Assembly: GCA_043821645.1 (NCBI GenBank)
Contig: JBDRCO010000042.1
Location: 26,457-90,456, forward strand
Length of the DNA: 64,000 nt
DNA from: Pseudomonadota bacterium
GTDB taxonomy: Bacteria > Myxococcota > JACRCW01 > JAFGSX01
Direction of reading: 5' to 3'
A program made the position numbers and the translations under genes. A model generated the notes under the pieces. The model searched no databases, was not told the DNA's origin, and worked only from the letters and a program-made list of their open reading frames with translations. Of the stretch, positions 7,675 through 32,097 are shown in pieces (the first letter of the stretch is position 1; every line of letters starts with the position of its first letter).

Positions 7675-7724
7675 CGCCTTGTACCTCGCTATTTTTCGAG
7701 GGGGCGTCGGGCGCCTACCCTCTC

Positions 7725-7792
7725 CAGGGGCGGTCGGCCCGCCCCTCGTCGCCGGGAGTGAATCCCGTCGACTTCACCCCGGCAGCACCTGA
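7725..7792 (-). repeat. Dispersed structured element, copy 1 (candidate cis-regulatory RNA or REP-like repeat)
   Basis: Reverse complement matches 31970-32038 at 64 of 69 aligned positions by manual alignment. Contains two hairpins and is enclosed by a 9-bp inverted repeat (7700-7708 / 7838-7846). Confidence 0.85.
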
Positions 7793-7871
7793 GCTCGGCG
7801 TGGGCGGGCGACACCTCGCCCTTCAGGGGAGCGCCAGGACGCCCCCCCGTGCGCCGTGCAAAGGACAGGGG

Positions 7872-9149
7872 TCAGCGGATCTCGATCACCTCGGCCCCAC
7901 CGCCGTCGCTGGGCGCAGCTGTCCCCGGCTCCATGAGCCAGGTGCTGGGTGTGGGCAGGTCAAGCTGGGTCGGGTTGGCTCCTGCCATGGCCTCGGCAGA
8001 CAGAGGCTGCGGGTCGCGGTACTCGAGGAGCTTGCCCTGGAAGTTGCGAAGCACGGCTTCACCGCGGGTGACGTCGTAGGCCAGCAGGTAGTCGGGGCCG
8101 ACCGGGATCTTGCCGCCGCCGCCAGGGGCGTCGATGACGTAGGTCGGCACGGCCAGGCCGCTGGTGTGGCCGCGCAGGCCGGCAATGATGTCGATGCCGC
8201 GCTGGATCGAGGTGCGAAAGTGTTCGGCACCGCGCACCGGGTCGCACTGAAAAAGGTAGTAAGGCCGCACCCGCATGCGCATCAGGCGGTGGGTCAGCTC
8301 GCGCATGGTGCCGACGTCGTCGTTGACACCCTTGAGCAGCACGCTCTGGTTGTTGAGCGGGATGCCCGCGCGCAGCAGCTTGTCGCAGGCCGCCGTGGCC
8401 TCGGGCGTGCACTCGCGGGGGTGCTCGAACTGCACGTTCATCCACACCGGGTGGTACTTGGCGAGCATCTGGCACAGGTCGTCGGTGATGCGCTGGGGCA
8501 TGACGCAGGGCACCCGGGTGCCTATGCGGATGACCTGGACGTGGGGGATGGCGCGCACCTTCTTGAGCACGCCCTCGAGCCGCGCCGTCGACAGGCACAG
8601 GGGATCGCCACCGGAGATGATGACGTCGCGAATCTCGGGGTGGCGCGCGATGTACTTGACCATGCGGCCCAGCTCGAGCCTGGGCACTGCGCCCTCGAAC
8701 ATGAGCCGCTTGCGCGTGCAGTGGCGGCAGTACATGGCGCAGGTGTTGCTGATGACCATCAGCACCCGGTCCGGATAGCGGTGGGTCAGTCCGGGCACGG
8801 GCGAGTGGCCCTCCTCGTGCAGCGGATCGTCCTCACCCACGTTGCGGTACAGGTACTCGTCGAGGCTGGGCAGGGACTGGCGGGCGATGGGATCGTCCGC
8901 ATCGTCCAGGTCGATGAGCGACAGGTAGTAGGGCGTGATGCCGATGCGAAAGTTCTGCACGACCTTCTGCCAGACCGCGTGATCTCCGTCGGCGACGCGC
9001 CACAACTTCTCGAGTTCATCGAGCGAGGTGATGCGGTGCCTGAACTGCCAGCGCCAGTCTGTCCATTCGGCTTGGGTGACGGCGGGAAACAGCCGCGCAC
9101 GTCGCTGCGAGTGCGGCTCGATGTCCTGCTCGTCGATGCTCTGCTCCAT
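7872..9149 (-). CDS. kamA: Lysine 2,3-aminomutase (KamA-type radical SAM/PLP enzyme)
   Basis: 'WTDWRWQ', 'GLTHRYPDRVL', CxxxCxxC 'CAMYCRHC', 'YYLFQCD', and the 'YVIDAPGGGGKIP' PLP-lysine motif. Start re-called at ATG 9149. Confidence 0.92.
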   Translation of the reverse strand: MEQSIDEQDIEPHSQRRARLFPAVTQAEWTDWRWQFRHRITSLDELEKLWRVADGDHAVWQKVVQNFRIGITPYYLSLIDLDDADDPIARQSLPSLDEYLYRNVGEDDPLHEEGHSPVPGLTHRYPDRVLMVISNTCAMYCRHCTRKRLMFEGAVPRLELGRMVKYIARHPEIRDVIISGGDPLCLSTARLEGVLKKVRAIPHVQVIRIGTRVPCVMPQRITDDLCQMLAKYHPVWMNVQFEHPRECTPEATAACDKLLRAGIPLNNQSVLLKGVNDDVGTMRELTHRLMRMRVRPYYLFQCDPVRGAEHFRTSIQRGIDIIAGLRGHTSGLAVPTYVIDAPGGGGKIPVGPDYLLAYDVTRGEAVLRNFQGKLLEYRDPQPLSAEAMAGANPTQLDLPTPSTWLMEPGTAAPSDGGGAEVIEIR

Positions 9150-9336
9150 TCTTTCTGCCCCGGCGTCTCGGTGACGTCGCCCACAACGGCGGGCCCCGAC
9201 GAGACGCATAGTGATTTTTTGGGTTGGTTGAAGAGGCGTTGTTATGAGCCGTGTTCGTGGCTCGCCCCCGAAAAGGTTGGTACCTCTTTACCTACTCCAG
9301 CTGTACCCACCTGCAAGACTTATTTGGAGGCTGGAT

Positions 9337-11121
9337 TCACTTTTTTGTCGACGGGGGAGGGGGCGGGGCGGGGGAGGGGGTCGCTGACCGGGACTCGCCC
9401 CCGCGCAGGCCGAGCAGGCCCCCGAAGAAGCCCCGGGCACTGGCTCCCAGGGAGCGCACCCGGTAGCCCCCCTCCTGCACCACCAGGGTGGGCAGACCGA
9501 GCTCGCCGATGCGGCGGCCGTTGGCGGCGAAGTCTGCGGCGCGCAGGGTGAAGGATCCGGTGGGGTCGTCCTTGCCCGTGTCGTAGCCCAGGCAGACCAC
9601 CAGGTAGGCCGGCTTGAAGCGGCGGATCCGGGCCAGGGCCTGATCCAGGGCCTTGAGGTAGGCCGGCCCGTCCAGGCCCTCGGGGAGCGGCAGGTTGAGG
9701 TTGAAGCCCTTGCCCGGGCCCTCGCCGGTCTCGTTGTCGAAGCCGCTGAAGTAGGGGTAGCTCAGGCGCGGGGTGCCATGGATGGACACGGTGAGCACGT
9801 CGTCGCGCTGGTAGAAGATGTCCTGGGCGCCGTTGCCGTGGTGGTAGTCCACGTCCAGGATGGCCACCTTGCCGTAGGTCGACAGCTCATGGGCCGCCAC
9901 CGCCGCTGTGTTGAAGTAGCAAAAGCCGCCGAATACCCGACGCTCGGCGTGGTGGCCAGGGGGCCGCACCAGGGCGTAGGCCAGGGGGTAGCCGCCGAGC
10001 AGGGCGTGGGCGCCGCTGAGGCCGCAGTCCACGGCCCGGCGCGCCGCCAGGTAGGCGTTGCGGTTGAGCGGGGTGAAGGTGTCGATGCAGTAGTAGCCCG
10101 CGCGCAGTGGAAGCTCCCGGGGCGGCCGGGTCGCGTTGCGCACCGGGAACACATAGGGATAGACGGACTCGCCCTCGTCCAGGCTCAAGCAGGCGCGCCT
10201 CAAGTAGTCCACGAACTCCTTGTCGTGCACCGCCTTGATGGCGTCCTCGGAGAAGTGGTTTACCCGCATGCGCTCGAACCAGCCCGTGGGCTCCAGGCCG
10301 CGCAGGATCGAGCGGATGCGCGCCGGCGCCTCGACGTAGCCGCGCTCGCGCACGTGGTGGATGTCGTGCTTGTCGTTGACGTACAGGGCGATCTTGCGCG
10401 GCCGCACCGGCTCAGGCTCGGTCTTCTTCTTCTGGTAGCGCGGGGGCCTGAGCTGCACCGGGTCGTCGACGATGGAGTCGAGGATCATGCTGTTGTATTC
10501 GGGCGAGCAGGTGCCCTTGTACTTGCGCTCCAGGATCACCCTCACCGCGGCCCGCACCTGGTCCCGGCTCGGCAACGTGGCCGGCCCCAGCAGATCCAGC
10601 ACCAGGTAGGGAGGATCCGTGGTGCCCGGCTTCACCGGCGTCTCGTAGCGGGTGTTGGCCAGGGGCCTGGCCCCCCAGCGCTCGTAGAAGCGGAGTCGCG
10701 CCGCGTTCTGGGCCCGGATGACAGGGTCCGGGGACAGCCCCGGGTCGTCGGGCAAGCACTCGAAGTACAGGGCGTGGGCGCCCAGGGCCAAAGATTCCTC
10801 GCGCACGCGCTCGTACAGGGCTCCACCCACGCCGCCCGAGGTGATCTTGGGTGCGGTGGCGATGAAGTCGAGGTAGCAAAAGCCCGCGTCCGGGGCGTGC
10901 AGCAGCAGGGCAAAGCCCTTGACCTGGCCGCGGTCGTTCTCGGCGGCCAGCAGCACCGCGCGAAAGCCAAACTTCAGCGGGTTGTCGAGCTGGCGCGGGA
11001 TCTTGGCGACGTCTTCGGCCTTCAGGGCTCCGAACTGGGCGCGCAGGATCTCCTGCACCTGGGCAATGGCGCTCTGGTTGGCGGGGGTGGTGGTGTCGGC
11101 GATTTTTCGGATGCGGAACAT
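9337..11121 (-). CDS. GNAT-like domain fused to a Zn-dependent histone deacetylase-family (acetylpolyamine amidohydrolase-like) domain
   Basis: N-terminal 'YLDFIAT...GGVGGALY...ARLRFYERWG'. C-terminal 'RPPGHHA', 'GGFCYFN', 'LDVDYHHGNG', 'GYD..KDD', 'QEGGY'. Confidence 0.9.
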   Translation of the reverse strand: MFRIRKIADTTTPANQSAIAQVQEILRAQFGALKAEDVAKIPRQLDNPLKFGFRAVLLAAENDRGQVKGFALLLHAPDAGFCYLDFIATAPKITSGGVGGALYERVREESLALGAHALYFECLPDDPGLSPDPVIRAQNAARLRFYERWGARPLANTRYETPVKPGTTDPPYLVLDLLGPATLPSRDQVRAAVRVILERKYKGTCSPEYNSMILDSIVDDPVQLRPPRYQKKKTEPEPVRPRKIALYVNDKHDIHHVRERGYVEAPARIRSILRGLEPTGWFERMRVNHFSEDAIKAVHDKEFVDYLRRACLSLDEGESVYPYVFPVRNATRPPRELPLRAGYYCIDTFTPLNRNAYLAARRAVDCGLSGAHALLGGYPLAYALVRPPGHHAERRVFGGFCYFNTAAVAAHELSTYGKVAILDVDYHHGNGAQDIFYQRDDVLTVSIHGTPRLSYPYFSGFDNETGEGPGKGFNLNLPLPEGLDGPAYLKALDQALARIRRFKPAYLVVCLGYDTGKDDPTGSFTLRAADFAANGRRIGELGLPTLVVQEGGYRVRSLGASARGFFGGLLGLRGGESRSATPSPAPPPPPSTKK

Positions 11122-11236
11122 GGCACCTCGTGGCGGGCTACGGTTGCTGTGTGTGCGCTAATATGACGAGCCCGTCGTCGCTGCGCAAGCACTGCGCGAT
11201 TTACAGCGCGGCCCCCGCTTGCCACAATGCGTAGCC

Positions 11237-11998
11237 ATGAAGATGGACCCACAGCGCTACTACGACGCCTTCAGCGAGGGCTACGACTCCCGACGGCACG
11301 ATGGCTACCACGCCCTGCTCGACGAGCTCGAGAGCGCCCTGGTGCAGGCGTACTGCACGGATCGCCACGTCCTGGACGCGGGCTGCGGCACGGGCCTCAT
11401 CCTGCAGCGGGTGCAGCGCGAGCTGCGTTCCCTCGTCGGCGCGGATCTGTCGGGCGGCATGCTGCGCAAGGCGGCCACCCGCAGCACGGCCTCCCTGGTG
11501 CAGGCCAGCCTGACCCAGCTGCCCTTTGCCGATGCCAGCTTCGATGCCGCCTACAGCTTCAAGGTGCTGGCGCACATCCCCGACATCCGCGGAGCCGTGG
11601 CCGAGCTGGGGCGCGTGGTGAAACCCGGCGGCCACCTGCTGCTCGAGTTCTACAACCCGCTGAGCATTCGCGGCCTGCTGTGGCACCTCAAGCGACCGGG
11701 GCGCATCGCCCGCGGTGTGCGTGAGCGCGACGTGTTCGTGCGCTTTGACACCCCGCACCGGGCCCAGAGTTATCTGCCCGACAACTTCTCCGTCGTCGAG
11801 ACCCGGGGCATCCGGGTGGTCACGCCCTTTGCCCAGCTGCTGCGGATGCCTGGCCTGGGCCCCCTGGTGGCTGATGCCGAGCGCCTGCTGGCCACCAGTC
11901 CGGCGCGGGTGCTGGGCAGCTTTTTCGTGGTGGTGGCACAGCGTCGCGATGGAGGCGAGTGCTGCGACGACGCTCCGGCAGCGCCCAGGTCTCACTGA
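11237..11998 (+). CDS. Class I SAM-dependent methyltransferase
   Basis: 'VLDAGCGTG', 'LPFADASFD', 'RVVKPGG'. Confidence 0.9.
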   Translation: MKMDPQRYYDAFSEGYDSRRHDGYHALLDELESALVQAYCTDRHVLDAGCGTGLILQRVQRELRSLVGADLSGGMLRKAATRSTASLVQASLTQLPFADASFDAAYSFKVLAHIPDIRGAVAELGRVVKPGGHLLLEFYNPLSIRGLLWHLKRPGRIARGVRERDVFVRFDTPHRAQSYLPDNFSVVETRGIRVVTPFAQLLRMPGLGPLVADAERLLATSPARVLGSFFVVVAQRRDGGECCDDAPAAPRSH

Positions 11999-12004
11999 CC
12001 GCCG

Positions 12005-14194
12005 ATGGCACATTCTGATCCCAGCCCACCTCCCCCCGGTGCCCGGCCAGTGACCTGGCGTGACCGGTTGCGGCCCTGGTGGCTGCTGGTCGCTGCCATC
12101 GGCCTGCTGTTGACCTGGCTGGAGACCCTGCTGGCCGGCATCCGCGGCCTGCTCGCGCCCGGCGACGGTGCCTGGCTGTCCGCCCTGGTTGCACCCGGCC
12201 CTGGCCTGCTGTGCTGGACCTTGCTGGCGACACTGCTCGCGCCTGCCCTCGACCTGCTGGCGCGCTGGCTGCTGCCGCGCCTTGGCAAGCAGGTGGCGCT
12301 TCGCCTCGTCTGGCTCGGCTGGGCTGCCCTGCTGGGCGGGCTGCTGGCCGCGGTTCTGGCCGGGATGATGACCCTGCGCGCCGAGCGCATCACCGAGCGC
12401 GACTTCGCGGTCGTCACGGTGGCCCTGGCCGCGGCCGTCGGCGCTGTGGCGGGCGCGGGACTGCTGGTGCTCCTCGGCCTGAGGCGGGCACGCCCGCTCG
12501 AGGCCGCACGCGCCGGCTGGGCAGCAGGGTTGGTGGTGGCGCTGAGCACGGGCCTGGGCGTCGTGACCCTGGCCGGCTTGCTGTGTGCGTACGACCAGCA
12601 GCTGGCCTCGACGCGTGTTGTGCTGTGGCTGGCCGTGGGAGGTGGCCTGGTCCTGCTGGCCAGCCTGGTGGGTCTGGCCCTGCCCGCACTGCAGGCGAGC
12701 TGGCTCAACCTGGCGCGGGGCCGCTGGGCTACTGGTCTGCTGCTGGCGCTGGTCGTCGCCGGATGGGTGCTGGCCGCCGTCGTGCTGCACCTGCGGCCTG
12801 ACGCGTCCGCGGCCCTGCTGCGCAGTGGGGGCCCGGCGGCGCGCACGCTGCTGCTGCTGCGGCAGCTCAGCGATGTCGATGGCGACGGGGCCGCCGCCTG
12901 GCTCGGCGGTGGCGACTGCGCACCCTTCGATCGCCAGCGCCATCCCCTGGCCCTGGACATCCCGGGCAATGGCATCGACGAGAACTGCGATGGTGCCGAT
13001 GCGGCCCAGGCCAGCTCACTCCCCGGCGCCAGCAGCGCGCGCTTCGCCGCGGTTCCGGCCGACCTGGTGCGCAAGCGCAACGTGCTCCTCATCGGCATCG
13101 ATGCCCTGCGTGGCGATCACGTGGGTTTTGGTGGCTACCAGCGGCCGGTCACGCCCTATCTCGACCGCCTGGCGCGCCGAAGCTGGGTGTTCACCAACAC
13201 CCTGGCGGCCTCGTCGACCACCCGGCAGTCGGTGCCCGTCCTGTTCAGCGGGCGCTGGGTCAGCGGCCTGCGCTGGAACCCGGGCACGCCCGTGGACCAG
13301 CTCGACAAGAAGAACCTGATGCTGCCCGAGATCCTCAAGGCGGCGGGCTATCGCACCATGGCGGTGGTCGACGAGTGGCTGCCCAAGTTCCTGAGCAGCT
13401 TCAACCAGGGCTTTGACAGCTTCGAGGCGGCCTACGGCGTGGGCCACTGGACAGAGCACGGCCAGTTTGCCGCCCCCTACAGCACGGCCCTGGCCCTGCA
13501 ACGCATGTTCGAGCGCGACCCCAAGAAGCCCTACTTCTTATATGTGCACTACGAGGCGCCGCACTTCCCCTACGTGGCCCACCCCGAGGTGGCGGACTTC
13601 GGTGCCCGCCCCATCGACCTGTACGATGCCGAGATCGCCTACGTGGACCGCGCCGTGGGTCAGCTGCTCGAGATGTTCGAGGCCCGGGGATGGCTCACCG
13701 ACACCCTGATCGTTGTCTTCGGCGATCATGGCCAGGAGTTCAAGGAGCACGGCCGCACCAAGCATTCGCGCGCCCTCTTCGTCGAGAGCGTGCATGTGCC
13801 TCTGCTGCTGCACGTGCCCGGGCAGGCGCCCCGCGTCGTGCCCCAGCGCGTGTCCCTGGTCGACGTCGCGCCGACCCTGCTCGACCTGCTCGGGTTGCCG
13901 GCGCCGGACTTCAAGCCCCAGGGCCGCAGCCTGCTGTACCCGCTGCTCACCGGGAGCAGCTCCGACGACAGGGCCTTTCTGGCAGAGCTGCTGATCATCG
14001 AGGGCGGCAAGCACGAGGACCTCAAGTCCCTGCTGCTGGGTCGCCACAAGTTGATCTGGAACATGACCAGCGGCGAGAAGCTGCTGTACGATGTGCAGGC
14101 CGATCCCGGGGAGCTCAAGGCCCTCGACGACGAGGCCCTGAAGCAGCAGCTGAGCCAGCGCCTGCAGCACGAGCTGGCCACCGCAGGCCAGTGA
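12005..14194 (+). CDS. Membrane-anchored alkaline-phosphatase-superfamily (sulfatase-like) hydrolase/transferase with a MopE-type metal-binding motif
   Basis: About 7 TM helices, then 'DCAPFD...DIPGNGIDENCDG', 'NVLLIGIDALR', 'HYEAPH', 'FGDHG'. No CxPxR motif. Confidence 0.85.
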   Translation: MAHSDPSPPPPGARPVTWRDRLRPWWLLVAAIGLLLTWLETLLAGIRGLLAPGDGAWLSALVAPGPGLLCWTLLATLLAPALDLLARWLLPRLGKQVALRLVWLGWAALLGGLLAAVLAGMMTLRAERITERDFAVVTVALAAAVGAVAGAGLLVLLGLRRARPLEAARAGWAAGLVVALSTGLGVVTLAGLLCAYDQQLASTRVVLWLAVGGGLVLLASLVGLALPALQASWLNLARGRWATGLLLALVVAGWVLAAVVLHLRPDASAALLRSGGPAARTLLLLRQLSDVDGDGAAAWLGGGDCAPFDRQRHPLALDIPGNGIDENCDGADAAQASSLPGASSARFAAVPADLVRKRNVLLIGIDALRGDHVGFGGYQRPVTPYLDRLARRSWVFTNTLAASSTTRQSVPVLFSGRWVSGLRWNPGTPVDQLDKKNLMLPEILKAAGYRTMAVVDEWLPKFLSSFNQGFDSFEAAYGVGHWTEHGQFAAPYSTALALQRMFERDPKKPYFLYVHYEAPHFPYVAHPEVADFGARPIDLYDAEIAYVDRAVGQLLEMFEARGWLTDTLIVVFGDHGQEFKEHGRTKHSRALFVESVHVPLLLHVPGQAPRVVPQRVSLVDVAPTLLDLLGLPAPDFKPQGRSLLYPLLTGSSSDDRAFLAELLIIEGGKHEDLKSLLLGRHKLIWNMTSGEKLLYDVQADPGELKALDDEALKQQLSQRLQHELATAGQ

Positions 14195-14215
14195 CGCGAC
14201 CGGCTCCGGAGCGAG

Positions 14216-15991: not shown

Positions 15992-16008
15992 GCCGGAGTG
16001 CGCGCCCC

Positions 16009-17340: not shown

Positions 17341-17342
17341 GC

Positions 17343-20012: not shown

Positions 20013-20019
20013 AACAGAC

Positions 20020-20904: not shown

Positions 20905-20905
20905 C

Positions 20906-22183: not shown

Positions 22184-22191
22184 GCCGTCTT

Positions 22192-22269: not shown

Positions 22270-22454
22270 GCATTATCCTCCACCGTGCGTGCGCCCTCGA
22301 TTTCCTGCAGCAGTTGTCCCCGCTGCGGCCGTCCTGGCTAGCCCATGGCCGCACACGGACGGCATTTTCCGCAATGCGCCTTACATTTCCAGGGGCCGAC
22401 GCGCAGCCACGCGAGAGATGGGGTAGAGTGGAAACAGGTGGGGGCGGAGCGCAG

Positions 22455-23924: not shown

Positions 23925-24018
23925 GTGCCCGCAACCAGCGCGCGATGCTTCGCGCTGGGCAGCCCACAAGCGTTCTGGCAAGCTCCTATGACGGGAGAAT
24001 GCAGTACGCGAGCAGGTC

Positions 24019-24669: not shown

Positions 24670-24737
24670 TCCGGCCAAATCTCCTGCTTCCATACTACTA
24701 TGAGCACGCAAGTGTTGTTGCGCGCAGGAGACCCATC

Positions 24738-26792
24738 ATGCCCATGAAGATCCGAGACACCGCTCGTCGCCTGGTCCAGGACGGACAGCTCGATCGCCAG
24801 GACGTGGCCAAGATCGTCGACTCGGCCAAGGACTGGGGCATGGTCACGCGCGCCGAGAAGAGCGAGCTGAAGAACCTGCTGACCCAGTACGCGGACAAGT
24901 TCACCCCCGAGGCCAGGCAGGATCTGGAGCGCTACCTGGGGCTGCCCGGGTCGCCGAGCACGCCCTCGACACCGACCGTGCCGGGGAGCCCAGCGCCGAC
25001 CTCGAGCCGCAGCCTGGGGACCAACCCGGGTGGCGAAGCCGTGGTGCTCAAGGGCGGGCTCTTCGTGGCCACTGCCGACGCCCCGCTGCCGAACACCGCG
25101 GTCGAGCTGGGCGACAGCCTGTACCGCGCCGCGTCGCTGATCGCGGCCTCGGATCCCAAAACCAACGTTTTCGCCGGGCTGTCTCTCGACGAGAAGAAGG
25201 CCGTGTTCGGTCAGCTGCAGGCCAGCCTGCTCAAGGCGCCACCTGACACCGATATCCCTCAGGGTTTTCAAGACGCCCTGCAGCCGCGCCAGCTGCGCTC
25301 GTCGGCGGCCACCGCCATGCTCGAGCTCATGCGCTCCTGCGACAAAAGCCAGCCCGAGGAGCGGCTGCTGCAGGACAGCGCGCTCAAGACCTATGCGGCC
25401 ATGGCCGAAAAGGAGACGGCGTCCATCCTGCGCGACTCCATGGTGTTTCAGCTGCACAACAACAAGGACTGCCTGGCCAATGCCGACCAGCGCGAGCTGA
25501 GCGACCGCCTCATGCGTCTGTTCGCGCCGACCCAGCCGCCCTACGACGAGTGGTTCGCGAACGGCAACAAGCAGCTCAATGTGGTGTGCCACACCGGCGG
25601 CGAGTTCTTCGACGGCGAGGTGCGGCGCTGGAAGGGCTCGGGCTTCAAGGAGGTCGGCACGGCCTCGTCGAGCCAGGTGGAGCTGGAGAAGACCTTCGAG
25701 CGCAACGGCGTCGAGACCACCGTGCGCCTGACCATGGTCAACGGCTCGGGGGGATCCTTCGACAAGATGGATGATCCGAACACGCACATCGTCGCGTACT
25801 CGGGCCACGCGTCGTGGGGCAAGACCGTGCCGCGAGAGATGCGCGGCGCGCCGGAGCAGGCTGGGGCCAAGCTGATGCTGGTTAACCAGTGCTGCGGCCG
25901 CGGCTCCATCAACAAGTTCAAAGACAAGTACCCCGAGTCCCAACTCATCACCACGCGCAACTCCAGCTACGAGCACGAGGACTTCAACACCTTCAGCAAG
26001 ACCATCCAGGGTATCGCCGAGCGCAAGAGCTGGGCCGCCATCAGCAACGAGATCCGCGGCGATCGCTACAGCAACAGCCGCGACAACTACTACTTCCCGT
26101 CGGACGCCATGTTGCGCATGCGCGCCCTGGACCGCGACCACGACGGCGTGCAGGACATCGTCGACAGGCTGGTCAGCTTCAACACCTTCAACGTGGCCGA
26201 GGACACTGCGCGCGAGTTCACGCCGCGCGATGCGGGTCAGCCCGCGGATCGCCTCGACGGCACCAAGGTGCACGAGGCGGCCCAGATCATGAACACCACG
26301 ACCCACTTCTCGGACTTCACCGAGCACCACGGCACCGGCGAGTCCTTTTACGGTGCGGGCTTCTTTGCGCCCAAGGGCGACGACGACCCCATGGTGCGCA
26401 TCACCTCCGACCGCCTGGGTGGCATCCAGAGTTACAGGGTCGAGGTCAATGCCCGCCACGCCCACGCCAGCGAGGAGGCCATCAAGGCCGAGGCCTTCTT
26501 CACCCTGGCGCACACCCCGCCCATCAAGGTTGCCAGCGACAGCAGCGTCGACACCTGCCTCAAGGGGCTGATCCTGGCCGCGCACTCCCTCGACGTGGAC
26601 TCGGGTTACCGCGACGACGAGATCTTCAAGGGCCTGCTCAAGAAGCACGGCCTGCCCGAGATCGACCTGTGGACGGTCAAGCCCTGCGTCGAGCTCAACC
26701 ACGTCTACGCCGGCAGTGACGCTTCCATTCGCAAGCTGCGCGAGAAGCTCGGCCCCCAGAAGCTGGACGAGCTCAAGGCCGCGCTGGGGTAG
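24738..26792 (+). CDS. Large hypothetical protein with a putative caspase-hemoglobinase-fold His/Cys dyad
   Basis: AGGAG RBS and coding-like composition. 'IVAYSGHA' ... 'LMLVNQCC' motifs and a 'DRDHDG' Ca-binding-like loop. No signal peptide seen. Confidence 0.7.
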   Translation: MPMKIRDTARRLVQDGQLDRQDVAKIVDSAKDWGMVTRAEKSELKNLLTQYADKFTPEARQDLERYLGLPGSPSTPSTPTVPGSPAPTSSRSLGTNPGGEAVVLKGGLFVATADAPLPNTAVELGDSLYRAASLIAASDPKTNVFAGLSLDEKKAVFGQLQASLLKAPPDTDIPQGFQDALQPRQLRSSAATAMLELMRSCDKSQPEERLLQDSALKTYAAMAEKETASILRDSMVFQLHNNKDCLANADQRELSDRLMRLFAPTQPPYDEWFANGNKQLNVVCHTGGEFFDGEVRRWKGSGFKEVGTASSSQVELEKTFERNGVETTVRLTMVNGSGGSFDKMDDPNTHIVAYSGHASWGKTVPREMRGAPEQAGAKLMLVNQCCGRGSINKFKDKYPESQLITTRNSSYEHEDFNTFSKTIQGIAERKSWAAISNEIRGDRYSNSRDNYYFPSDAMLRMRALDRDHDGVQDIVDRLVSFNTFNVAEDTAREFTPRDAGQPADRLDGTKVHEAAQIMNTTTHFSDFTEHHGTGESFYGAGFFAPKGDDDPMVRITSDRLGGIQSYRVEVNARHAHASEEAIKAEAFFTLAHTPPIKVASDSSVDTCLKGLILAAHSLDVDSGYRDDEIFKGLLKKHGLPEIDLWTVKPCVELNHVYAGSDASIRKLREKLGPQKLDELKAALG

Positions 26793-26804
26793 GAAGCGTC
26801 CCGC

Positions 26805-28181
26805 TCAGGTGCCGTTGTCGCCGGTCTCGCTGAGGTTGGTGCGGTAGATCTGCTTGGTGGCGGCCAGGCGGTACAGCAGCTTGCACGCTTCGAAGGGGCG
26901 CATGCGTGCGGTGCTGACGAGGTCGCGCACGGTGCGGCGTCCGTCCACCAGGGTGAGCAGGCGGCGCTCGTCGCTGGTGAACTGGGACGGGTCGGTCATG
27001 CTGCTGGGACGGTGCGCGAACACGGCATCGAAACCGCCCACCTCGCGCTCGATCACGCTCCACTCATCGACCCGGCGCAGGCCCTCGAGCAGCAGGCCCT
27101 GCACGTCGATGTCGACCAGCATGGCGTCGAACTCGGGGGGAGGATGGACGCCGGCCAGCAGGCAGCAGCGACCTCCGTGCACGCGCAGGGACTCGTACAC
27201 CAGCTCGCAGCACTGATCCGCGATGGCCAGCTTGAGATCCTCGGCGCGGATGTGTCCCAGCCGCACCAGCTTCTCGCCCAGCGGCAGGCCACCGCGGGCG
27301 CTCGAGGAGCGCGCCAGCTGCTCCAGCTCGGTCTGCGAGATCAGGTTGCGGGCCACCAGGAAGCGGCCGATGCGAAAGGCCATGTCCGCGTTCATGGCCT
27401 GGGCAGCGCGCACGCGTCCCCGCTTGAGGTAGATGTCGAAGCGCGTGCGTGGCCCCCAGATCCGGAACAAGCCACCCAGGGACTGCAGCGACACCAGCTG
27501 CAGCACCTCGGGCAAACCAACCTTGGACAGATCGGCCCACAGCATGGCGCTGCTGGCCGCCACTCCATCCATGGCAGGTGGCAACTGCTGCTGCGCCTCG
27601 CGCACGGCGGCGCGGGCGATCTCGGCGCTGTCACCGAGGCCGTGGCGGACCAGCACGCGCTCCAGCGCCTGGGCCAGGTCCTGGGCCTGATCCTGCTCGG
27701 GGCTGCTGCCCTGCGTATCGCTGGACGGGGCCAGCGGTGCTGCGGTGACGGCCGTATCCGCATCGAGCTCCAGATCCGAGTCGTCGACCTTGGCCTGGCG
27801 AACGATGCGCAGCTGCTTTTCGAGGGTATAGGAGACCAGGGCCAGGATGACCTCGGGGCTGAAGGGTTTGGTCACATAGTCGACCACGCCTGGTGCACTG
27901 GCGAAGCGGTCGCCGGTGGGTTCGCCCTTGCTGGTCATCAGGATGACCGGGATGTGGGCCATCTGCTCGTCCTGCGCCAGCTGCTGGCAGAACTGATAGC
28001 CCGTCATCTGAGGCATCACGAAGTCGAGCAGGATCAGCTCGGGCTGGTCGAGCTTGGCGCGCGACAGCCCGGCGCGACCGCTGCTGGCGGTGAGCACGCG
28101 GTATCCCGCGCCGGCGAGCGTGCTCTCGACGATGCGCAGCACCGTGGGCGAGTCGTCGACAACCAGGAGGGTGGAGGCCAT
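26805..28181 (-). CDS. Response regulator with C-terminal DUF4388 (PatA_N-like) domain
   Basis: REC 'LVVDDS...LLDFVMP...TKPF'. Then 'DLSKVGLPEVLQLV', 'LGEKLVRLG', 'LLLEGLRRVDEW'. Confidence 0.88.
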   Translation of the reverse strand: MASTLLVVDDSPTVLRIVESTLAGAGYRVLTASSGRAGLSRAKLDQPELILLDFVMPQMTGYQFCQQLAQDEQMAHIPVILMTSKGEPTGDRFASAPGVVDYVTKPFSPEVILALVSYTLEKQLRIVRQAKVDDSDLELDADTAVTAAPLAPSSDTQGSSPEQDQAQDLAQALERVLVRHGLGDSAEIARAAVREAQQQLPPAMDGVAASSAMLWADLSKVGLPEVLQLVSLQSLGGLFRIWGPRTRFDIYLKRGRVRAAQAMNADMAFRIGRFLVARNLISQTELEQLARSSSARGGLPLGEKLVRLGHIRAEDLKLAIADQCCELVYESLRVHGGRCCLLAGVHPPPEFDAMLVDIDVQGLLLEGLRRVDEWSVIEREVGGFDAVFAHRPSSMTDPSQFTSDERRLLTLVDGRRTVRDLVSTARMRPFEACKLLYRLAATKQIYRTNLSETGDNGT

Positions 28182-28385
28182 GGGGGCACACTGTGGCCAA
28201 GTGAAGCCACGACGTCAACAGTCTCGCCGCTACCAGACGCGGTCTGGGCCCGAGCATCCCGGTCCTGCTGCGGGAGCGCGCGGACCGGCTCGCATTCAGC
28301 GCAGGCGGGTCGCGCGGCCTTCAAGAGCGTTCACGGGCATCTGGCAACGGGGATGGGAACCAGGGCACACAAAGGGCCAGCGTCC

Positions 28386-29030
28386 TCACTGGGTCTTCAC
28401 GAGCAGATCCAGCTCCTTGCCGCCGCGGAGTATGAGCACGTGAACCTCGGGCATGTTCGAGGCCTGCTTCTCGAGCTGGGTCAGCGACGTCATGTCCGTG
28501 ACGCTCTGACCTGCGATCTTGAGCACGGTATCTCCTGGCTGCAGGCCAATGGTGGCAAAGAACCCGTCGTCGGGAATGGTGTCGAGCTTGATGCCCCGGT
28601 TGTTCTTGGTCACCTCCATCACCTGCACGGGCTGCACGGCCGGCGCGGTGCGGGGCTTGCTTCCCACCGTGATCACCAGCTTGTCGCTGCCCCCCAGCAC
28701 CTCGGCGATGATGGCCGGGTTGTCGCGCACCGCCAGCTCGTAGCCATTGATGGCCAGCATCACGTCGCCAGGCCGCAGGCCGATGCGGGCCAGCAGGTCT
28801 CCGCGGGTCAGGCTGGCGATCTTCCAGCCGAAGCGCACGCGATCTCGTAGCGCAGGGACCACCTGCAACGGCGTGCTCAGCGACGAGGAGACCGAGGTCT
28901 GCGCGCAGCCCTCGACCCGCTCGCCGGTGTCGGTGTCAATGACCTCGTAGCTGCGACAGGTCTCGGCGGCGGCCGGCACAGAGAAAAAAACCGCGCAGAG
29001 CATGAGAGCTCGAGTGGTCGTTCGTGTCAT
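28386..29030 (-). CDS. Secreted protein with two PDZ domains
   Basis: Signal peptide followed by 'IGLRPGDVMLAING' and 'IGLQPGDTVLKIAG'. Confidence 0.8.
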   Translation of the reverse strand: MTRTTTRALMLCAVFFSVPAAAETCRSYEVIDTDTGERVEGCAQTSVSSSLSTPLQVVPALRDRVRFGWKIASLTRGDLLARIGLRPGDVMLAINGYELAVRDNPAIIAEVLGGSDKLVITVGSKPRTAPAVQPVQVMEVTKNNRGIKLDTIPDDGFFATIGLQPGDTVLKIAGQSVTDMTSLTQLEKQASNMPEVHVLILRGGKELDLLVKTQ

Positions 29031-29294
29031 CGAGGTCCTCCTGCAGGCAACATGTGGACGCGAGACAGGCGTCTGTGTTCACCAGGTCCGCGCACCGCGG
29101 TCATCATCGCCGCCCGGGCGCGGTCGATCAACCGTCAGTGCAGGAACCGGACAAGGGACATGCGCGTCGGGTGGCCGCGGCTTCCCTGCGGCGCGGGATT
29201 TCAAGATATGTTTAACGAGCTCAGGGGATTGAATGCAGGAGCGGATCCGTCGTCCAAGCCCCGAGGGCGTGCGATAGAGCGCGGAGGAGATGTC

Positions 29295-30329
29295 ATGAAG
29301 AGCACAGGACTCGATCGAGGGCGCGTGGCCGGGCTGTTGCTGGTGGGGGTGATGGCCGTGCAGGCCGCGGGCTGTCTGGTGGTCTCCAACCGACCCACCA
29401 AGGGCGACCTCGCCCTGCTGTGGTCCTTCGAGGGGCAGACCAGCTGCGCCTACGCGGCAGTGGATGAGATCGTCGTGTCCATCCGCGGGCAGGGCAACAG
29501 TGAGAACTTCGAGGTGGTGATGCCCTGCGCCGAGGGAGGGGGTACCTTTACCGGATTCCTGCAGGGCAGCTACACCGTACACCTCGAGGGCATCGCCTTC
29601 GATGGCGCGGTGCTCTACGCGGCCACCTTGAACGCCATGGTCGAGGGCGGCCACACCACAGATCTCGGTCTGGTGGACCTTTACAGTACCCTCCCCGTGC
29701 CCACCACCGGCTCGCTGTCTGTGGACTGGGCTTTCTTGTACCCGGCGGGGTCGCCCACCCTGGACTGTGCCTATGCGGGGGTCGACTACGTCGAGGTGGC
29801 CCTGGTCGATGGCTACAATCGCACCGTGTTCGACCAGAGCGTGCGCTGTCTCGACGGCCCCGCGATCATCGACCAGATCGAGGACGGTGTGTACACGATC
29901 TACCTCAGCGGCCTGGGCAGCTGGCGCGGACGCAGCGTGGCGCTGTACGAGGCCGCACCGTTCGCGGTCGACGTGTTCGCAGGGCAGCTCACCGTCGTGG
30001 GCGTGGTGGACCTGCCTCGCATCGACAGCCAGTTTGGCGACGTCGATATCGGCTGGACCTTCGCGGGCAACAACAGCTGCAGTGCCGCGGGTGTCCGCGA
30101 CATCACGATCCGCATCTACCGCCTGGCACCGGACATCCTGGACGACGAGTTCTCGGTGGCTTGCCAGGATGAGCCGCAGCTGCGCACCACCTTCGTGCCC
30201 AGCGACTACGGCATCGAGATCGATGGCCTGGACTCTGCCGGCCATGTGATCTGGGGTGGCTATCTCGAGTACGCCCTGGCGCCAGGGGGCTACGTCGACG
30301 TCACGGTGCAGACCCAGCCCGTGAACTGA
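29295..30329 (+). CDS. Lipoprotein with three tandem Cys-containing beta-rich repeats (paralog of 51139-52338)
   Basis: GGAGG RBS and lipobox 'AAGC'. The unit 'W.F....C..AGV...C' occurs three times. Confidence 0.8.
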   Translation: MKSTGLDRGRVAGLLLVGVMAVQAAGCLVVSNRPTKGDLALLWSFEGQTSCAYAAVDEIVVSIRGQGNSENFEVVMPCAEGGGTFTGFLQGSYTVHLEGIAFDGAVLYAATLNAMVEGGHTTDLGLVDLYSTLPVPTTGSLSVDWAFLYPAGSPTLDCAYAGVDYVEVALVDGYNRTVFDQSVRCLDGPAIIDQIEDGVYTIYLSGLGSWRGRSVALYEAAPFAVDVFAGQLTVVGVVDLPRIDSQFGDVDIGWTFAGNNSCSAAGVRDITIRIYRLAPDILDDEFSVACQDEPQLRTTFVPSDYGIEIDGLDSAGHVIWGGYLEYALAPGGYVDVTVQTQPVN

Positions 30330-30449
30330 TCCCCGGACGCGGCCGGCCCGGACCGCGATGCCTCTGCGGTGTGCGTGGTGTGTCTGTGCCGTCGAGACCT
30401 TTGTTGCCGCAGCGCTTCGGGATAGGCTGACGGTCGTTCAGCTCTCGAG

Positions 30450-31943
30450 GTGCCCGTGGGTCGTCTGCGCCCCTCCATGCGCATCGCCACCCGCCTGGTG
30501 GTGGCCTTTGCCCTGCCCACAGCCCTGGTGGTCACGGTCACGGGTGTGTTCGCTGTCCTCAGCGCGCGCGAGGCCTTTCAGGAGCAGTACCGGCGTCGCC
30601 TCGAGGTCCTGGCCACCACCCTGGGCGCCCAGATCGACGCGGACCGCGTGCTCTCTTTGCTCCCTGGCGACGAGGCGCAGCGCTGGTACCTGGACCTGGC
30701 CGCCGAGCTGGAGCGGCAGCGCCGGGCCGCGGACCTGGGCGGATTGGTGCTGCTGAGCGGGGGCGGCCTGGTCTACATCGACGCCGATCGCCGCTATGTC
30801 ATCGAGCAGCGCTGGCCGCACTGGGACAGCGACCAGGACGTCGTGGCGCGTGCTCTGACTGGTGATGCGGGGGCCTGGGTCGAGGACACGCGCGCCACGC
30901 CCGCGGTGTATCGCGCCTACCGGCGGCTGGAGGTGCCGGGCCTCGAAGGTGCCAGCGGTGCCAGCGACGAGATCTTGCTGCTCGCCGTGGAGTCCAGCCT
31001 GCACTATCGCGCGACCATCCGCGCCTACGTCCGCACCCTGTTGCCGGTGGGCCTGCTGTCCTTGCTGGCGGTGGGACTGATCGCGGTGGTGGTGGCGCGC
31101 GGCATCACCCGACCGGTGCACCGGCTGGTCGAGGAGGCCCGGCGCATCGGCGGCGGTGATCTGGAGGCGCCGGTCACCAGCACCGGAGATGACGAGATCG
31201 GCTTCCTTGGCCGCACCCTCGACGAGATGCGCGGGGCCTTGCAGCGGCGCGACCGTGAACGCCAGGCCATGCTGGCGAGCATCGCCCACGAGGTGCGCAA
31301 CCCCCTCGGCGGCATGGAGCTCTTCCTGGGCCTGCTGCGCGAGGGTCTCGATGAGCCCGTGGCCGACGACGAGACCCTGGCCGAGCTGCGCGGCTACTCG
31401 GATCGTGTGCGGCGCGAGATGGACTACCTCAAGGGGGTGGTCAACGACTTCTTGGCCTTTGCCCGGGAGATGCCCCTGAGCCGGCGCGAGGTCGAGCTGC
31501 GCCCGCTTCTCGATGAGGTGCGGGACGTGATCGAGGGCGACGCCCGGAGCCGCGGGGTCCGCTTCGAGCTGGTGTGCGACGACGGACTGCGGGCAGCCCT
31601 GGACCCGGGTGCCATTCACCGGGCCCTGCTCAACCTGGTGCAGAACGCACTGCAGGCGACACCGGCGGATGGTAGGGTGCGGTTGTGTGGCGAGGCTCTC
31701 GACGACGGGGGCGTGCGAATCGCGGTCGAGGACACGGGCAGTGGCATCCCCGCCGACAAGCTGCCCGATGTGCGGACGCCTTTCTTCACCACCAAGGAGA
31801 AGGGCACCGGCCTGGGCCTGGCCATCGTGGACAAGATCGCCCGCGCCCACGGCGGCCGCCTGCAGATTCGCAGCGAGCCTGGTGTGGGCACCACGGTGGC
31901 GCTCGAGCTGCCCCGGGGCGAGGTGCTCGAGATGATCGGCTGA
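30450..31943 (+). CDS. Membrane sensor histidine kinase (HAMP-HisKA-HATPase)
   Basis: Two TM helices, HAMP 'DEIGFL', H-box 'AHEVRNPL', 'NLVQNA', 'DTGSGI', 'GTGLGLAI'. Exact start uncertain (30450, 30456 or 30477). Confidence 0.92.
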   Translation: MPVGRLRPSMRIATRLVVAFALPTALVVTVTGVFAVLSAREAFQEQYRRRLEVLATTLGAQIDADRVLSLLPGDEAQRWYLDLAAELERQRRAADLGGLVLLSGGGLVYIDADRRYVIEQRWPHWDSDQDVVARALTGDAGAWVEDTRATPAVYRAYRRLEVPGLEGASGASDEILLLAVESSLHYRATIRAYVRTLLPVGLLSLLAVGLIAVVVARGITRPVHRLVEEARRIGGGDLEAPVTSTGDDEIGFLGRTLDEMRGALQRRDRERQAMLASIAHEVRNPLGGMELFLGLLREGLDEPVADDETLAELRGYSDRVRREMDYLKGVVNDFLAFAREMPLSRREVELRPLLDEVRDVIEGDARSRGVRFELVCDDGLRAALDPGAIHRALLNLVQNALQATPADGRVRLCGEALDDGGVRIAVEDTGSGIPADKLPDVRTPFFTTKEKGTGLGLAIVDKIARAHGGRLQIRSEPGVGTTVALELPRGEVLEMIG

Positions 31944-31969
31944 AGATCTGTCGACCCAGCGACAGGTCT

Positions 31970-32038
31970 TCAGGTGCTGCCAGGGGTGAAGTCGGAGGGA
32001 TTCACTCCCGCCGACGAGGGGCAGGCCGACCGCCCCTG
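31970..32038 (+). repeat. Dispersed structured element, copy 2
   Basis: Matches the reverse complement of 7725-7792. Preceded by a 14-bp hairpin stem (31940-31973). Confidence 0.85.
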
Positions 32039-32097
32039 AGAAAGAAGAATCAAGAGCTGGTGATTTATCGACAGCTCTTGAGAGCGAGGTGGTCTCC

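What the first reader, a model, noticed from the sequence alone, without database searches (positions are those of the whole stretch)
7700..32040. Unannotated ~69-nt structured element occurring twice, 24 kb apart, each inside an operon spacer
Seen: the reverse complement of 7725-7792 (TCAGGTGCTGCC-GGGGTGAAGTCGACGGGATTCACTCCCGGCGACGAGGGGCGGGCCGACCGCCCCTG) matches 31970-32038 (TCAGGTGCTGCCAGGGGTGAAGTCGGAGGGATTCACTCCCGCCGACGAGGGGCAGGCCGACCGCCCCTG) at 64 of 69 positions. Both copies are in sense orientation between co-oriented genes (kamA to ATP-grasp; kinase to sigma54 regulator) and end 50-59 nt before the next start. Two stems are invariant (GGGGUGAA/UUCACUCC and AGGGGC/GCCCCU) and all differences fall outside them. 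The loop-1 GUCG(G) is complementary to (C)CGAC in both the linker and loop 2, so a pseudoknot or kissing loop is possible. Both copies follow a CUGA...UCAG stem with a different interior. Inference: a cis-acting RNA (processing or stability element, ribozyme, riboswitch) or a lineage-specific REP/MITE. I cannot match it to a family I know.
Basis: partly seen in the sequence, partly recalled or inferred. Interest (0 to 1): 0.75.

Follow-up and report, generated by a model that had tools for sequence, protein, structure and literature searches.

The report
Dispersed two-hairpin REP-like repeat family
The two look-alike 69-base stretches are members of a family of roughly a hundred small hairpin-forming DNA repeats scattered between genes of an uncultured myxobacterium, an ordinary kind of selfish repeat and not a dedicated regulatory RNA.

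Summary
The two copies are real: 64 of 69 positions match, both lie in sense orientation in operon spacers, and chance expectation is 0. They are not a two-copy element. The window's genome holds 85 (nhmmer) to 97 (covariance model) copies. These occur singly, in head-to-tail arrays and in inverted pairs.

Copies lie between genes. They are enriched between convergent genes, depleted between divergent ones, and as often antisense as sense in co-directional spacers.

All five orthologous spacers compared with the sister genus differ in occupancy. The core motif recurs in 4 of 150 other genomes of the phylum. There is no Rfam match, terminator consensus, terminal inverted repeat or target duplication. 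No copy lies beside any IS200/RAYT-type gene examined.

Verdict: a lineage-restricted REP/BIME-like mobile repeat whose mobilising enzyme is unknown. This is a new variant of a known kind and of low to moderate interest.

The parts
31970..32042 (+). Copy A of the repeat (whole unit as matched by the covariance model): 5' CAG, leader GTGCTGCC-A-GGGGTGAA, hairpin 1, GA linker, hairpin 2, purine-rich tail
   Evidence: Model R1 match G000:C42:58426-58498, 82.8 bits; sequence
31991..32015 (+). Copy A hairpin 1: arms GTCGGAGGG / CCCGCCGAC (one A.G mismatch), loop ATTCACT
   Evidence: Family covariation, helix 1: 8 of 9 pairs change on both sides, 93.4% of cells paired; it is in the minimum-energy fold
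32017..32037 (+). Copy A hairpin 2: arms AGGGGCAG / CCGCCCCT (one A.C mismatch), loop GCCGA
   Evidence: Helix 2: 5 of 8 pairs change on both sides, 96.3% paired; fold
31944..31969 (+). Extra 10-bp hairpin directly after the kinase stop codon and before copy A. It is shared, together with the TGA, by one other copy (G000:C87:162701-162786)
   Evidence: Fold; 86% identity over the whole 86-nt query; alignment
7721..7792 (-). Copy B of the repeat (whole unit)
   Evidence: Model R1 match G000:C42:34177-34248, 80.9 bits; sequence
7748..7772 (-). Copy B hairpin 1: arms GTCGACGGG / CCCGGCGAC (one A.G mismatch), loop ATTCACT
   Evidence: for the family. In this copy the minimum-energy fold prefers the alternative pairing CCGGGGUGAA/UUCACUCCCGG
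7726..7746 (-). Copy B hairpin 2: arms AGGGGCGG / CCGCCCCT, loop GCCGA
7697..7722 (-). Additional hairpin-2-like module (GGCG CCCGA CGCC...) just 3' of copy B. The same module follows four nested copies elsewhere in the genome
   Evidence: Alignment; 17-18-nt exact matches to hairpin 2 of other copies; fold

Best explanation
The two stretches belong to one young subfamily (7 copies at 86-100% identity to copy A) of a lineage-restricted family of about 70-nt dispersed repeats. The unit has five parts:
- a conserved unpaired leader (CAG-N-TGCTGCC-(A)-GGGGTGAA);
- hairpin 1, with an 8-9 bp stem of freely covarying sequence and a loop ATTCACT or a few variants;
- a GA linker;
- hairpin 2, a G/C-rich 8-bp stem with loop (G/C)CCGA;
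- a short purine-rich tail.

It behaves as non-autonomous selfish DNA of the REP/BIME kind. It multiplies within the genome, forms head-to-tail arrays and nested copies, and survives where it does least harm: after gene ends and in operon spacers.

Shown here: copy number, structure, genomic context, turnover between genera, and the lack of terminal inverted repeats (TIRs) and target-site duplications (TSDs).

Inferred:
- One strand is recognised as a folded single strand. The stems vary while keeping their pairing, the leader stays fixed, and G.T mispairs outnumber A.C.
- An enzyme that recognises hairpins, not identified here, does the copying.
- In the two window operons the insert merely adds stable hairpins to the polycistronic mRNA. 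Any effect on mRNA decay or read-through would be secondary.
For: Copy number:
- Iterative nhmmer gives 48, then 75, then 85 hits. Covariance model R1 gives 97 matches at E<=0.01 in the own genome.
- Hairpins with GCCGA/CCCGA loops, or their complements, are the commonest perfect 7-bp/5-nt hairpins in the genome.

Structure, on 37 copies:
- The two-hairpin model is 94.8% paired against 73.9% in shuffles. 13 of 17 pairs change on both sides, 0 of 500 shuffles reach the observed value, and slid controls pair at 47-55%.
- The same architecture with different stems appears in 34 matches from the sister genus G001 and in 21 matches from G076, G056 and G110.

Context (gene calls are from my own GC3-based ORF caller):
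- The 85 copies fall into 65 loci. Of the 58 loci with both flanking genes called, 34 are co-directional, 20 convergent and 4 divergent. The genome background is 2436/678/679.
- The binomial p is 0.003 for the convergent excess and 0.025 for the divergent deficit.
- Within co-directional spacers, 15 loci are sense, 17 antisense and 2 mixed.
- Of 16 multi-copy clusters, 13 are head-to-tail (periods from about 70 nt) and 3 are inverted.

Turnover:
- The window's two filled spacers are empty in G001, where they measure 119 and 30 nt against 197 and 145 nt here.
- Three filled G001 sites are empty in this genome.

Nested copies: at 4 loci a copy of the window's subfamily sits between the leader + hairpin 1 and the hairpin 2 of an older copy. 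The older copies belong to several other subtypes.

Distribution:
- Among 40 relatives, 1 has it: G001, with 83 matches.
- Among 150 genomes of the phylum, 4 have it: G001; G076 with at least 27 near-identical copies, many at contig ends; G056 with 1; G110 with 2.
- A pattern scan of 185,579 species genomes returned 66 loci. Only 2 are true copies, both from one MAG titled 'Deltaproteobacteria bacterium isolate Zod_Metabat.937'.

Strand asymmetry of mispairs: G.T versus A.C is 13:4, 7:1 and 1:1 in the three alignments. The first two together give 20:5, binomial p=0.004.
Against: - No mobilising enzyme was found. The genome has four RAYT-like Y1 genes (PF01797 22-34 bits; NF047646 64-70 bits, below its cut-off of 80), but none has a copy within 6 kb, even at nhmmer E<=100.
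- None of 14 Y1 loci in four genomes has a model match above 15.3 bits with filters off.
- G001 has 83 copies and no Y1_Tnp hit, but it is only 82% complete.
- No movement was seen directly. Contigs of runs X1 and X2 carry copy A unchanged, and no joint skipping the element was listed.
- Orientation relative to local GC skew shows no significant bias by locus (17:12 to 25:21, p>0.4).
- Exact element ends could not be fixed. Intergenic DNA of the sister genus is too diverged to align.
- Copies share ancestry, so covariation and mispair counts are not independent events.
- Context statistics rest on a crude gene caller that covers 75% of the genome.
Confidence: 0.8

Rival explanations
1. It is a REP/REPIN in the strict sense. 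One of the genome's RAYT (REP-associated tyrosine, HUH Y1) transposases recognises the folded top strand and copies it by single-strand transposition.
For: - The genome has four RAYT-like genes.
- There are no TIRs. The TSD test on 41 single copies equals shuffles: shared k=4 words in 28 copies against 25.8+/-3.2, k=5 in 11 against 9.6, k=6 in 3 against 2.2.
- The stems are variable but keep pairing, beside a fixed unpaired leader.
- G.T mispairs exceed A.C by 20:5 on the element's own strand.
- The preference for co-directional and convergent spacers matches what Di Nocera et al. 2013 report for REPs (PMC3733652, abstract read).
Against: - No copy flanks any of 14 Y1 loci in G000, G076, G056 or G110 or lies within 6 kb in G000.
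- The one RAYT with flanking repeats (G000:C32:2525-3439) has its own unrelated AT-rich ~30-nt inverted doublets.
- G001 has 83 copies and no Y1_Tnp hit, at 82% completeness.
- There is no unpaired GTAG or CGTC tag (definitions from PMC3733652, abstract and section 6).
- Most clusters are head-to-tail, not inverted doublets: 13 against 3.
Confidence: 0.2
2. It is a cis-acting structured RNA (processing or stability element, ribozyme or riboswitch) that controls the downstream cistron.
For: - Both window copies are sense, in operon spacers, 50-59 nt before the next start.
- The hairpins covary strongly.
- The G.T excess is compatible with an RNA read from the element's strand.
- The spacer with copy A folds better than shuffles, z -3.98.
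Against: - There are 97 copies.
- 17 of 34 co-directional loci are antisense, and 20 loci lie between convergent genes.
- Arrays reach 4 units.
- The orthologous spacers of both window operons in G001 lack the element.
- Rfam gives no match at gathering thresholds on the window, and nothing relevant at E<=10 on copy A or E<=1 on 8 further loci.
- The 79-nt core of copy A alone folds no better than shuffles, z -0.93.
Confidence: 0.05
3. The units are host transcription terminators or attenuators that spread by duplication. Their placement at gene ends reflects function, not tolerance.
For: - Convergent spacers are enriched and divergent spacers depleted.
- Many copies lie within 10 nt of a stop codon.
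- Hairpin 2 is a strong G/C stem.
Against: - No hairpin-plus-T-run site is found on either strand at either window copy. The tail after hairpin 2 is purine-rich.
- Both window copies sit inside operons, upstream of a gene that must still be expressed.
- Sequence identity extends through the unpaired leader.
- Arrays of 2-4 units and nested copies are not expected of terminators.
Confidence: 0.08
4. It is a MITE, an internally deleted DDE-type insertion sequence.
For: - It is small, multi-copy and intergenic.
- In G076 the core lies among CTAG-bounded palindromic elements that do look MITE-like.
Against: - The ends are not inverted repeats: 5' CAGNTGCTGCC against 3' ...CCCCCTNGARAA.
- There is no TSD signal.
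- No larger element bounded by the two halves was found. Four solo 5' halves and three solo 3' halves were detected, and none pair within 8 kb.
Confidence: 0.04

Closest known systems
REP / BIME elements of enterobacteria and pseudomonads, and the GTAG- and CGTC-tagged REP superfamilies (Di Nocera et al. 2013, PMC3733652: abstract and section 6 read)
   Same: - Small palindromic units in high copy.
- Found between co-directional and convergent genes and just after coding regions.
- Subfamilies differ in stem and loop sequence.
- Clusters and mosaics include optional extra modules.
- Likely transcribed as part of mRNAs.
   Different: - The unit is about 70 nt and holds two unrelated hairpins plus an 18-nt conserved unpaired leader. 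REPs are 20-40 bp single palindromes.
- It has no GTAG or CGTC tag.
- Clusters are mostly head-to-tail.
- The paper does not mention myxobacteria or delta-proteobacteria (term search, 0 hits).
REPIN-RAYT systems (Bertels and Rainey 2011, PMC3337134: abstract and passages read)
   Same: - Non-autonomous hairpin-forming repeats without TIR/TSD-type ends.
- Spacer and stem sequences vary while pairing is kept.
- Long persistence within a lineage.
- The genome does encode RAYT-like genes.
   Different: - A REPIN is two inverted REPs forming one long hairpin, and RAYT genes are typically flanked by their REPINs.
- Here the unit is not an inverted doublet, and no Y1 gene examined is flanked by it.
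- The genome's one repeat-flanked RAYT has a different, AT-rich repeat.
IS200/IS605-derived non-autonomous elements (palindrome-associated transposable elements).
   Same: - Different hairpins near the two ends.
- No TIRs and no TSD.
- A strand-specific single-strand substrate would fit the G.T excess.
   Different: - No parent IS with matching ends was found.
- No clear fixed target tetranucleotide; there is only a loosely conserved CAG 5' of the unit.
- No significant orientation bias with GC skew.
BOX elements of Streptococcus pneumoniae and small dispersed repeats of cyanobacteria
   Same: - Modular units with optional or reiterated modules.
- Unknown mobilising enzyme.
- Nested insertions of copies into other copies.
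   Different: - Unrelated sequences and hosts.
- Any comparison of detail rests on recall only.

Membership tests
REP / REPIN-RAYT | Short imperfect palindromes in high copy number, extragenic | tested here: met
   85-97 copies. They lie between genes. The few 'inside gene' flags come from my crude ORF caller.
REP / REPIN-RAYT | Unpaired GTAG or CGTC tag at one end of the palindrome (PMC3733652) | tested here: not met
   The family consensus reads ...GCTGCC(A)GGGGTGAA before hairpin 1 and GA before hairpin 2, with no terminal GTAG or CGTC. CGTC occurs only inside the paired 3' arm of some hairpin 1 variants.
REP / REPIN-RAYT | Units mainly as inverted doublets that fold into one long hairpin (REPIN; PMC3337134) | tested here: not met
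   49 of 65 loci hold a single copy. Of 16 multi-copy clusters, 13 are head-to-tail and 3 inverted.
REP / REPIN-RAYT | A RAYT (Y1 HUH transposase) gene flanked by the repeats | tested here: not met
   No copy lies within 6 kb of the 4 RAYT-like genes, even at nhmmer E<=100. The best model score at 14 Y1 loci of 4 genomes is 15.3 bits. G001 has copies but no Y1 hit, at 82% completeness.
REP / REPIN-RAYT | Preference for co-directional and convergent intergenic regions, downstream of genes | tested here: met
   34 co-directional, 20 convergent and 4 divergent loci, against a background of 2436/678/679.
MITE (DDE transposon derivative) | Terminal inverted repeats | tested here: not met
   The 5' and 3' ends of the consensus are not complementary.
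MITE (DDE transposon derivative) | Target-site duplication | tested here: not met
   In 41 single copies, shared flank k-mers equal the shuffled pairings for k=3-6.
IS200/IS605-derived non-autonomous element | Ends matching those of a resident autonomous IS with TnpA | tested here: not met
   No half-element pairs lie within 8 kb, and there is no core next to any Y1 gene. TnpB-type genes were not searched.
IS200/IS605-derived non-autonomous element | Insertion 3' of a fixed short target, and orientation tied to replication direction | tested here: inconclusive
   Only a loosely conserved CAG precedes the unit. Orientation against GC skew is 17:12 to 25:21 by locus, p>0.4, in a draft assembly.
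Cis-regulatory structured RNA (riboswitch, ribozyme, leader) | Match to a curated RNA family | tested here: not met
   0 Rfam matches at gathering thresholds in the window. Only sub-threshold chance hits at E<=10 on copy A and E<=1 on 8 loci.
Cis-regulatory structured RNA (riboswitch, ribozyme, leader) | Fixed sense orientation and conserved position relative to the regulated genes | tested here: not met
   15 sense, 17 antisense and 2 mixed loci. 5 of 5 orthologous spacers differ in occupancy.
Cis-regulatory structured RNA (riboswitch, ribozyme, leader) | Covariation supporting a conserved secondary structure | tested here: met
   The same signal is expected of DNA hairpins in mobile repeats, so it does not discriminate.
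Intrinsic terminator | G/C hairpin followed by a T/U run | tested here: not met
   0 terminator-like sites on either strand at both copies. The tail is purine-rich.

The most novel reading that the evidence does not exclude
The core GGGGTGAA - hairpin 1 - GA - hairpin 2 - UGAGA is kept in three families of an under-sampled myxobacterial phylum, while its leader and flanking modules differ. It is not tied to any RAYT gene examined, and it shows a strand-specific excess of G.T mispairs. It could therefore be the substrate of an undescribed, non-RAYT, strand-specific mobilisation system. Alternatively it could be a host-domesticated single-strand signal, with a target preference for the hairpin 1/hairpin 2 junction of older copies.
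Probability: 0.15. Interest if true: 0.6.

Novelty: new variant of a known kind. Interest (0 to 1): 0.3.

Why it matters
For annotation, these roughly 100 units should be masked as repeats. They should not be called as riboswitch-like RNAs, and they explain many contig breaks in this assembly and in G076.

For biology, the family adds a well-resolved example from a barely sampled myxobacterial lineage: two distinct covarying hairpins, a fixed unpaired leader, and nested insertions. The usual RAYT partner is not evident for it. That keeps open the question of what copies such elements.

For the two operons in the window, the inserts are recent additions. They are absent from the sister genus and are not part of conserved regulation.

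Tried and rejected
- **Rfam.** Gathering scan of the window gave 0 matches. E-value scans of copy A and of 8 other loci gave only a tRNA and sub-threshold chance hits.
- **Pattern scan of genome contigs.** It returned 66 loci, of which 64 are chance matches in unrelated phyla.
- **Hairpin-2-only search.** It found 265 candidates, of which 194 lie outside elements. Of those, 136 are genic and mostly chance, so I drew no firm count of solo modules.
- **Half-element search for a parent IS.** It found nothing.
- **GC-skew orientation test.** By copy it gave 31:18, p=0.08. This vanished when counted by locus.
- **TSD test.** Negative.
- **Sequencing runs.** No listed holder is on record as RNA. Laid contigs of X1, X2, X4 and X5 showed copy A in place in X1 and X2 and no empty-site joint. 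The many joints listed lie in the conserved sigma-54 domain and come from other organisms.
- **Exact insertion borders.** I tried to read them from the G001 orthologous spacers, but the intergenic DNA is too diverged.
- **Literature.**
  - 'repetitive extragenic palindromic' + 'Myxococcus' gave 4 papers, none relevant by listing.
  - myxobacteria / intergenic / repetitive element / hairpin gave nothing relevant among the 10 listed.
  - 'unique repetitive DNA sequence' + 'Myxococcus xanthus' gave 0 papers. I recall a 1991 J Bacteriol note of about that title, but could not find or read it.
- **Earlier-findings look-ups by sequence.** Three gave no look-alikes.
- **Sigma-54 promoter.** By eye, the reverse complement of the leader (TGGCAG...) lacks a -12 TTGC.
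- **Coding potential, MIRU-like.** The unit carries stop codons in several frames.

Full report
**1. Observation**

Reverse-complemented 7725-7792 and 31970-32038 agree at 64 of 69 aligned positions (92.75%). A 27-letter pattern from the core hits only these two places in the window, against 0.00 expected.

Pfam confirms the neighbours:
- Copy B lies between a radical-SAM/LAM_C (kamA-like) gene at 7872-9209(-) and a D-Ala-D-Ala-ligase-type ATP-grasp gene at 6685-7674(-).
- Copy A lies between a HAMP/HisKA/HATPase kinase at 30450-31943(+) and a receiver + sigma-54-activator protein at 32089-33513(+).

Both copies are sense and end 50-59 nt before the next start.

**2. It is a large family, not a pair**

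- A DNA search of the window's own genome (G000: 7.07 Mb, 140 contigs, 67% G+C) gave 52 matches.
- Iterated nhmmer gave 48, then 75, then 85 hits at E<=1e-3.
- A covariance model built from 37 copies (R1) found 97 matches at E<=0.01.
- The 85 nhmmer copies fall into 65 loci: 49 single, 13 double, 2 triple and 1 quadruple. Of the 16 clusters, 13 are head-to-tail, with periods from about 70 nt. Three are inverted pairs.
- Several copies sit at contig ends.
- The window's two copies belong to one subfamily, with hairpin 1 arms GTCGACGGG/CCCGTCGAC. It has 7 copies at 86-100% identity to copy A.

**3. Structure**

The family alignment shows these parts in order:
- a conserved 5' edge and leader, CAG-N-TGCTGCC-(A)-GGGGTGAA;
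- an 8-9 bp hairpin whose arms differ freely between copies but stay complementary, with loop ATTCACT, ATTCATT or ACCTGCG;
- a GA linker;
- a G/C-rich 8-bp hairpin with loop (G/C)CCGA;
- a purine-rich tail.

On 37 copies this two-hairpin model is 94.8% paired, against 73.9% in shuffles. 13 of 17 pairs change on both sides, 0 of 500 shuffles reach the observed scores, and slid controls pair at 47-55%.

Only 1 of 8 pairs changes on both sides. It is also lost in subfamilies with other loops (ACCTGCG here; GGTCTCC in G001; TTGAC/TCGTA in G076).

The segments lie in the order a-b-a'-b' with no spacers between them. Thermodynamically both are possible: copy A folds into hairpins 1 and 2, and copy B into the a:a' stem plus hairpin 2. 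Only b:b' has comparative support.

**4. Context**

I used my own GC3-based ORF caller, which called 3932 genes covering 75% of the genome. It is crude and its limits apply to everything in this section.
- Of the 65 loci, 58 have both neighbouring genes called. Of these, 34 are co-directional, 20 convergent and 4 divergent. The background is 2436/678/679.
- The convergent excess has p=0.003 and the divergent deficit p=0.025.
- In co-directional spacers, 15 loci are sense, 17 antisense and 2 mixed.
- Many copies lie within 10 nt of a stop codon.
- Neither window copy matches a promoter or hairpin-plus-T-run terminator consensus on either strand.

**5. Turnover and distribution**

In the only other genome of the same family-level taxon (G001, another genus, 82% complete), orthologues of the flanking genes are 61-64% identical. 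The kamA/ATP-grasp spacer there is 119 nt and the kinase/regulator spacer 30 nt. Neither holds the element, with filters off.

Conversely, three G001 copies with syntenic flanks (L036, L038, L042) correspond to element-free spacers in G000, even at nhmmer E<=100. So 5 of 5 compared sites differ in occupancy.

G001 nevertheless carries 83 matches of the same architecture.

Wider searches:
- Among 40 relatives, only G001 has matches.
- Among 150 genomes drawn from the phylum, 4 have matches. In this scan at most 32 candidates per genome were scored, so counts are lower bounds.
  - G001.
  - G076, in another family, with at least 27 near-identical copies, many at contig ends.
  - G056, with 1.
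  - G110, in a third family, with 2 in tandem.
- In G076 the core GGGGTGAA-hairpin 1-GA-hairpin 2-TGAGA is kept. The leader differs: it is a small extra hairpin, CCGCCCGAAGGGCGG, followed by TCGTTTT. The unit lies between CTAG-bounded palindromic elements.
- A pattern scan of one genome per 185,579 species gave 66 loci. Only two are real copies (61.4 and 53.6 bits), both in one MAG titled 'Deltaproteobacteria bacterium isolate Zod_Metabat.937'.
- Earlier notes of this scan call the window's genome an uncultured myxobacterium. I did not test that label.

**6. How it may move**

- There are no terminal inverted repeats.
- There is no target-site duplication. In 41 single copies, shared flank words equal the shuffled pairings.
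- At four loci (C51:244293, C87:305658, C81:31137, C3:27733) a copy of the window's subfamily lies between the leader + hairpin 1 and the hairpin 2 of an older copy. The older copies belong to several other subtypes, so these look like independent insertions near the hairpin 1/hairpin 2 junction.
- Copy B is likewise followed by an extra hairpin-2-like module at 7697-7722.
- Non-Watson-Crick cells in the stems are G.T far more often than A.C on the element's own strand: 13:4 and 7:1, together 20:5, p=0.004, plus 1:1 in G076. This hints that one strand matters as a folded single strand, whether DNA or RNA. Copies are not independent, so the hint is modest.
- These traits resemble HUH/Y1-type single-strand transposition. 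The genome does have four RAYT-like genes.
- But no copy lies within 6 kb of them.
- The best model score over 14 Y1 loci in four genomes is 15.3 bits.
- The one RAYT with flanking repeats has its own AT-rich ~30-nt inverted doublets.
- G001 has no Y1 hit.
- No parent element bounded by the two halves was found.
- Orientation against GC skew is not significant by locus.
- Laid contigs showed copy A in place in two runs and no empty site.

The mobilising enzyme is therefore unknown.

**7. Comparison with known kinds**

The element works like REP/BIME repeats. It is small, hairpin-forming, multi-copy and extragenic. It sits downstream of genes, has sequence subfamilies and forms mosaics. These traits are as summarised in PMC3733652 (abstract and section 6 read) and PMC3337134 (abstract and passages read).

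It fails the tested defining features of the strict families:
- no GTAG or CGTC tag;
- not mainly inverted doublets;
- not flanking a RAYT gene;
- no TIR or TSD, as a MITE would have;
- no Rfam family;
- no terminator consensus.

Literature searches found no description of it. PMC3733652 does not mention myxobacteria. Earlier notes of this scan describe other two-hairpin REP/BIME-like families in other uncultured myxobacteria. Sequence look-ups found no look-alike of this one.

**8. Verdict**

This is a lineage-restricted, REP/BIME-like dispersed repeat family. The two window copies are recent insertions into operon spacers.

It is a new variant of a known kind. What remains open, and mildly interesting, is what copies a core that is conserved across three families without a visible RAYT partner.

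Noticed in passing
G000:C32:2399-2427 and 3465-3493 (locus L031), flanking the RAYT-like gene C32:2525-3439(-): This is a canonical-looking REP-RAYT arrangement. An AT-rich ~30-nt repeat sits in inverted orientation on both sides of the gene. The same repeat occurs as inverted pairs 80-140 nt apart on at least 7 other contigs (C9, C112, C5, C29, C118, C53). It is unrelated in sequence to the element studied here.
   Followed up: partly
G000:C112:6402-6824 (locus L119:1903-2325) and look-alikes on C16, C77, C15, C128, C138, C82, C63, C5, C139, C18: A larger repeat of about 420 nt carries a diverged copy of the element (the subfamily with hairpin 2 CTTCCCGAAAG) at a fixed position. Pieces of it also lie near the RAYT-like genes on C128 and C63. 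It may be the end of a bigger mobile element.
   Followed up: partly
About 14 loci in G000, e.g. C118:47671-47716, C2:60643-60688, C87:289102-289140: An optional 5' module of about 40 nt (CACCGAGCGAC.TCAGGGAGCGAGGTGTCCTTGACAG, itself an imperfect hairpin) occurs only directly upstream of a core copy or of a core remnant.
   Followed up: partly
Loci L143-L157 and L160-L162 (G076): In G076 the core is embedded between palindromic elements of 45-60 nt (CCCTAAAACAAGCGCGG...CCGCGTTTGTTTTCAGGG). These are bounded by CTAG on both sides, which looks like a separate MITE family that duplicates a CTAG target.
   Followed up: no
window 31941-31969 and G000:C87:162775-162810: The hairpin in front of copy A is shared with one other copy. 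The shared stretch starts exactly at a TGA. In the window this TGA is the kinase's stop codon, and on C87 it closes a 208-codon open frame.
   Followed up: partly
L029:1417-1489 and 1495-1809 (G000:C36): The only four-unit array starts 6 nt after the 3' end of a tRNA gene (tRNA match 63.3 bits; array).
   Followed up: no
window 5674-11121 (-): A gene cluster holds a GNAT + histone-deacetylase-domain fusion (9337-11121), a kamA-like lysine 2,3-aminomutase (7872-9209) and two D-Ala-D-Ala-ligase-type ATP-grasp enzymes (6685-7674, 5674-6684). This looks like a beta-lysine-based small-molecule or peptide pathway.
   Followed up: no
window 32050-32081 (+): A further 10-bp hairpin unique to this locus lies between copy A and the ribosome-binding site of the sigma-54 regulator gene. 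It has no other copy in the genome.
   Followed up: partly
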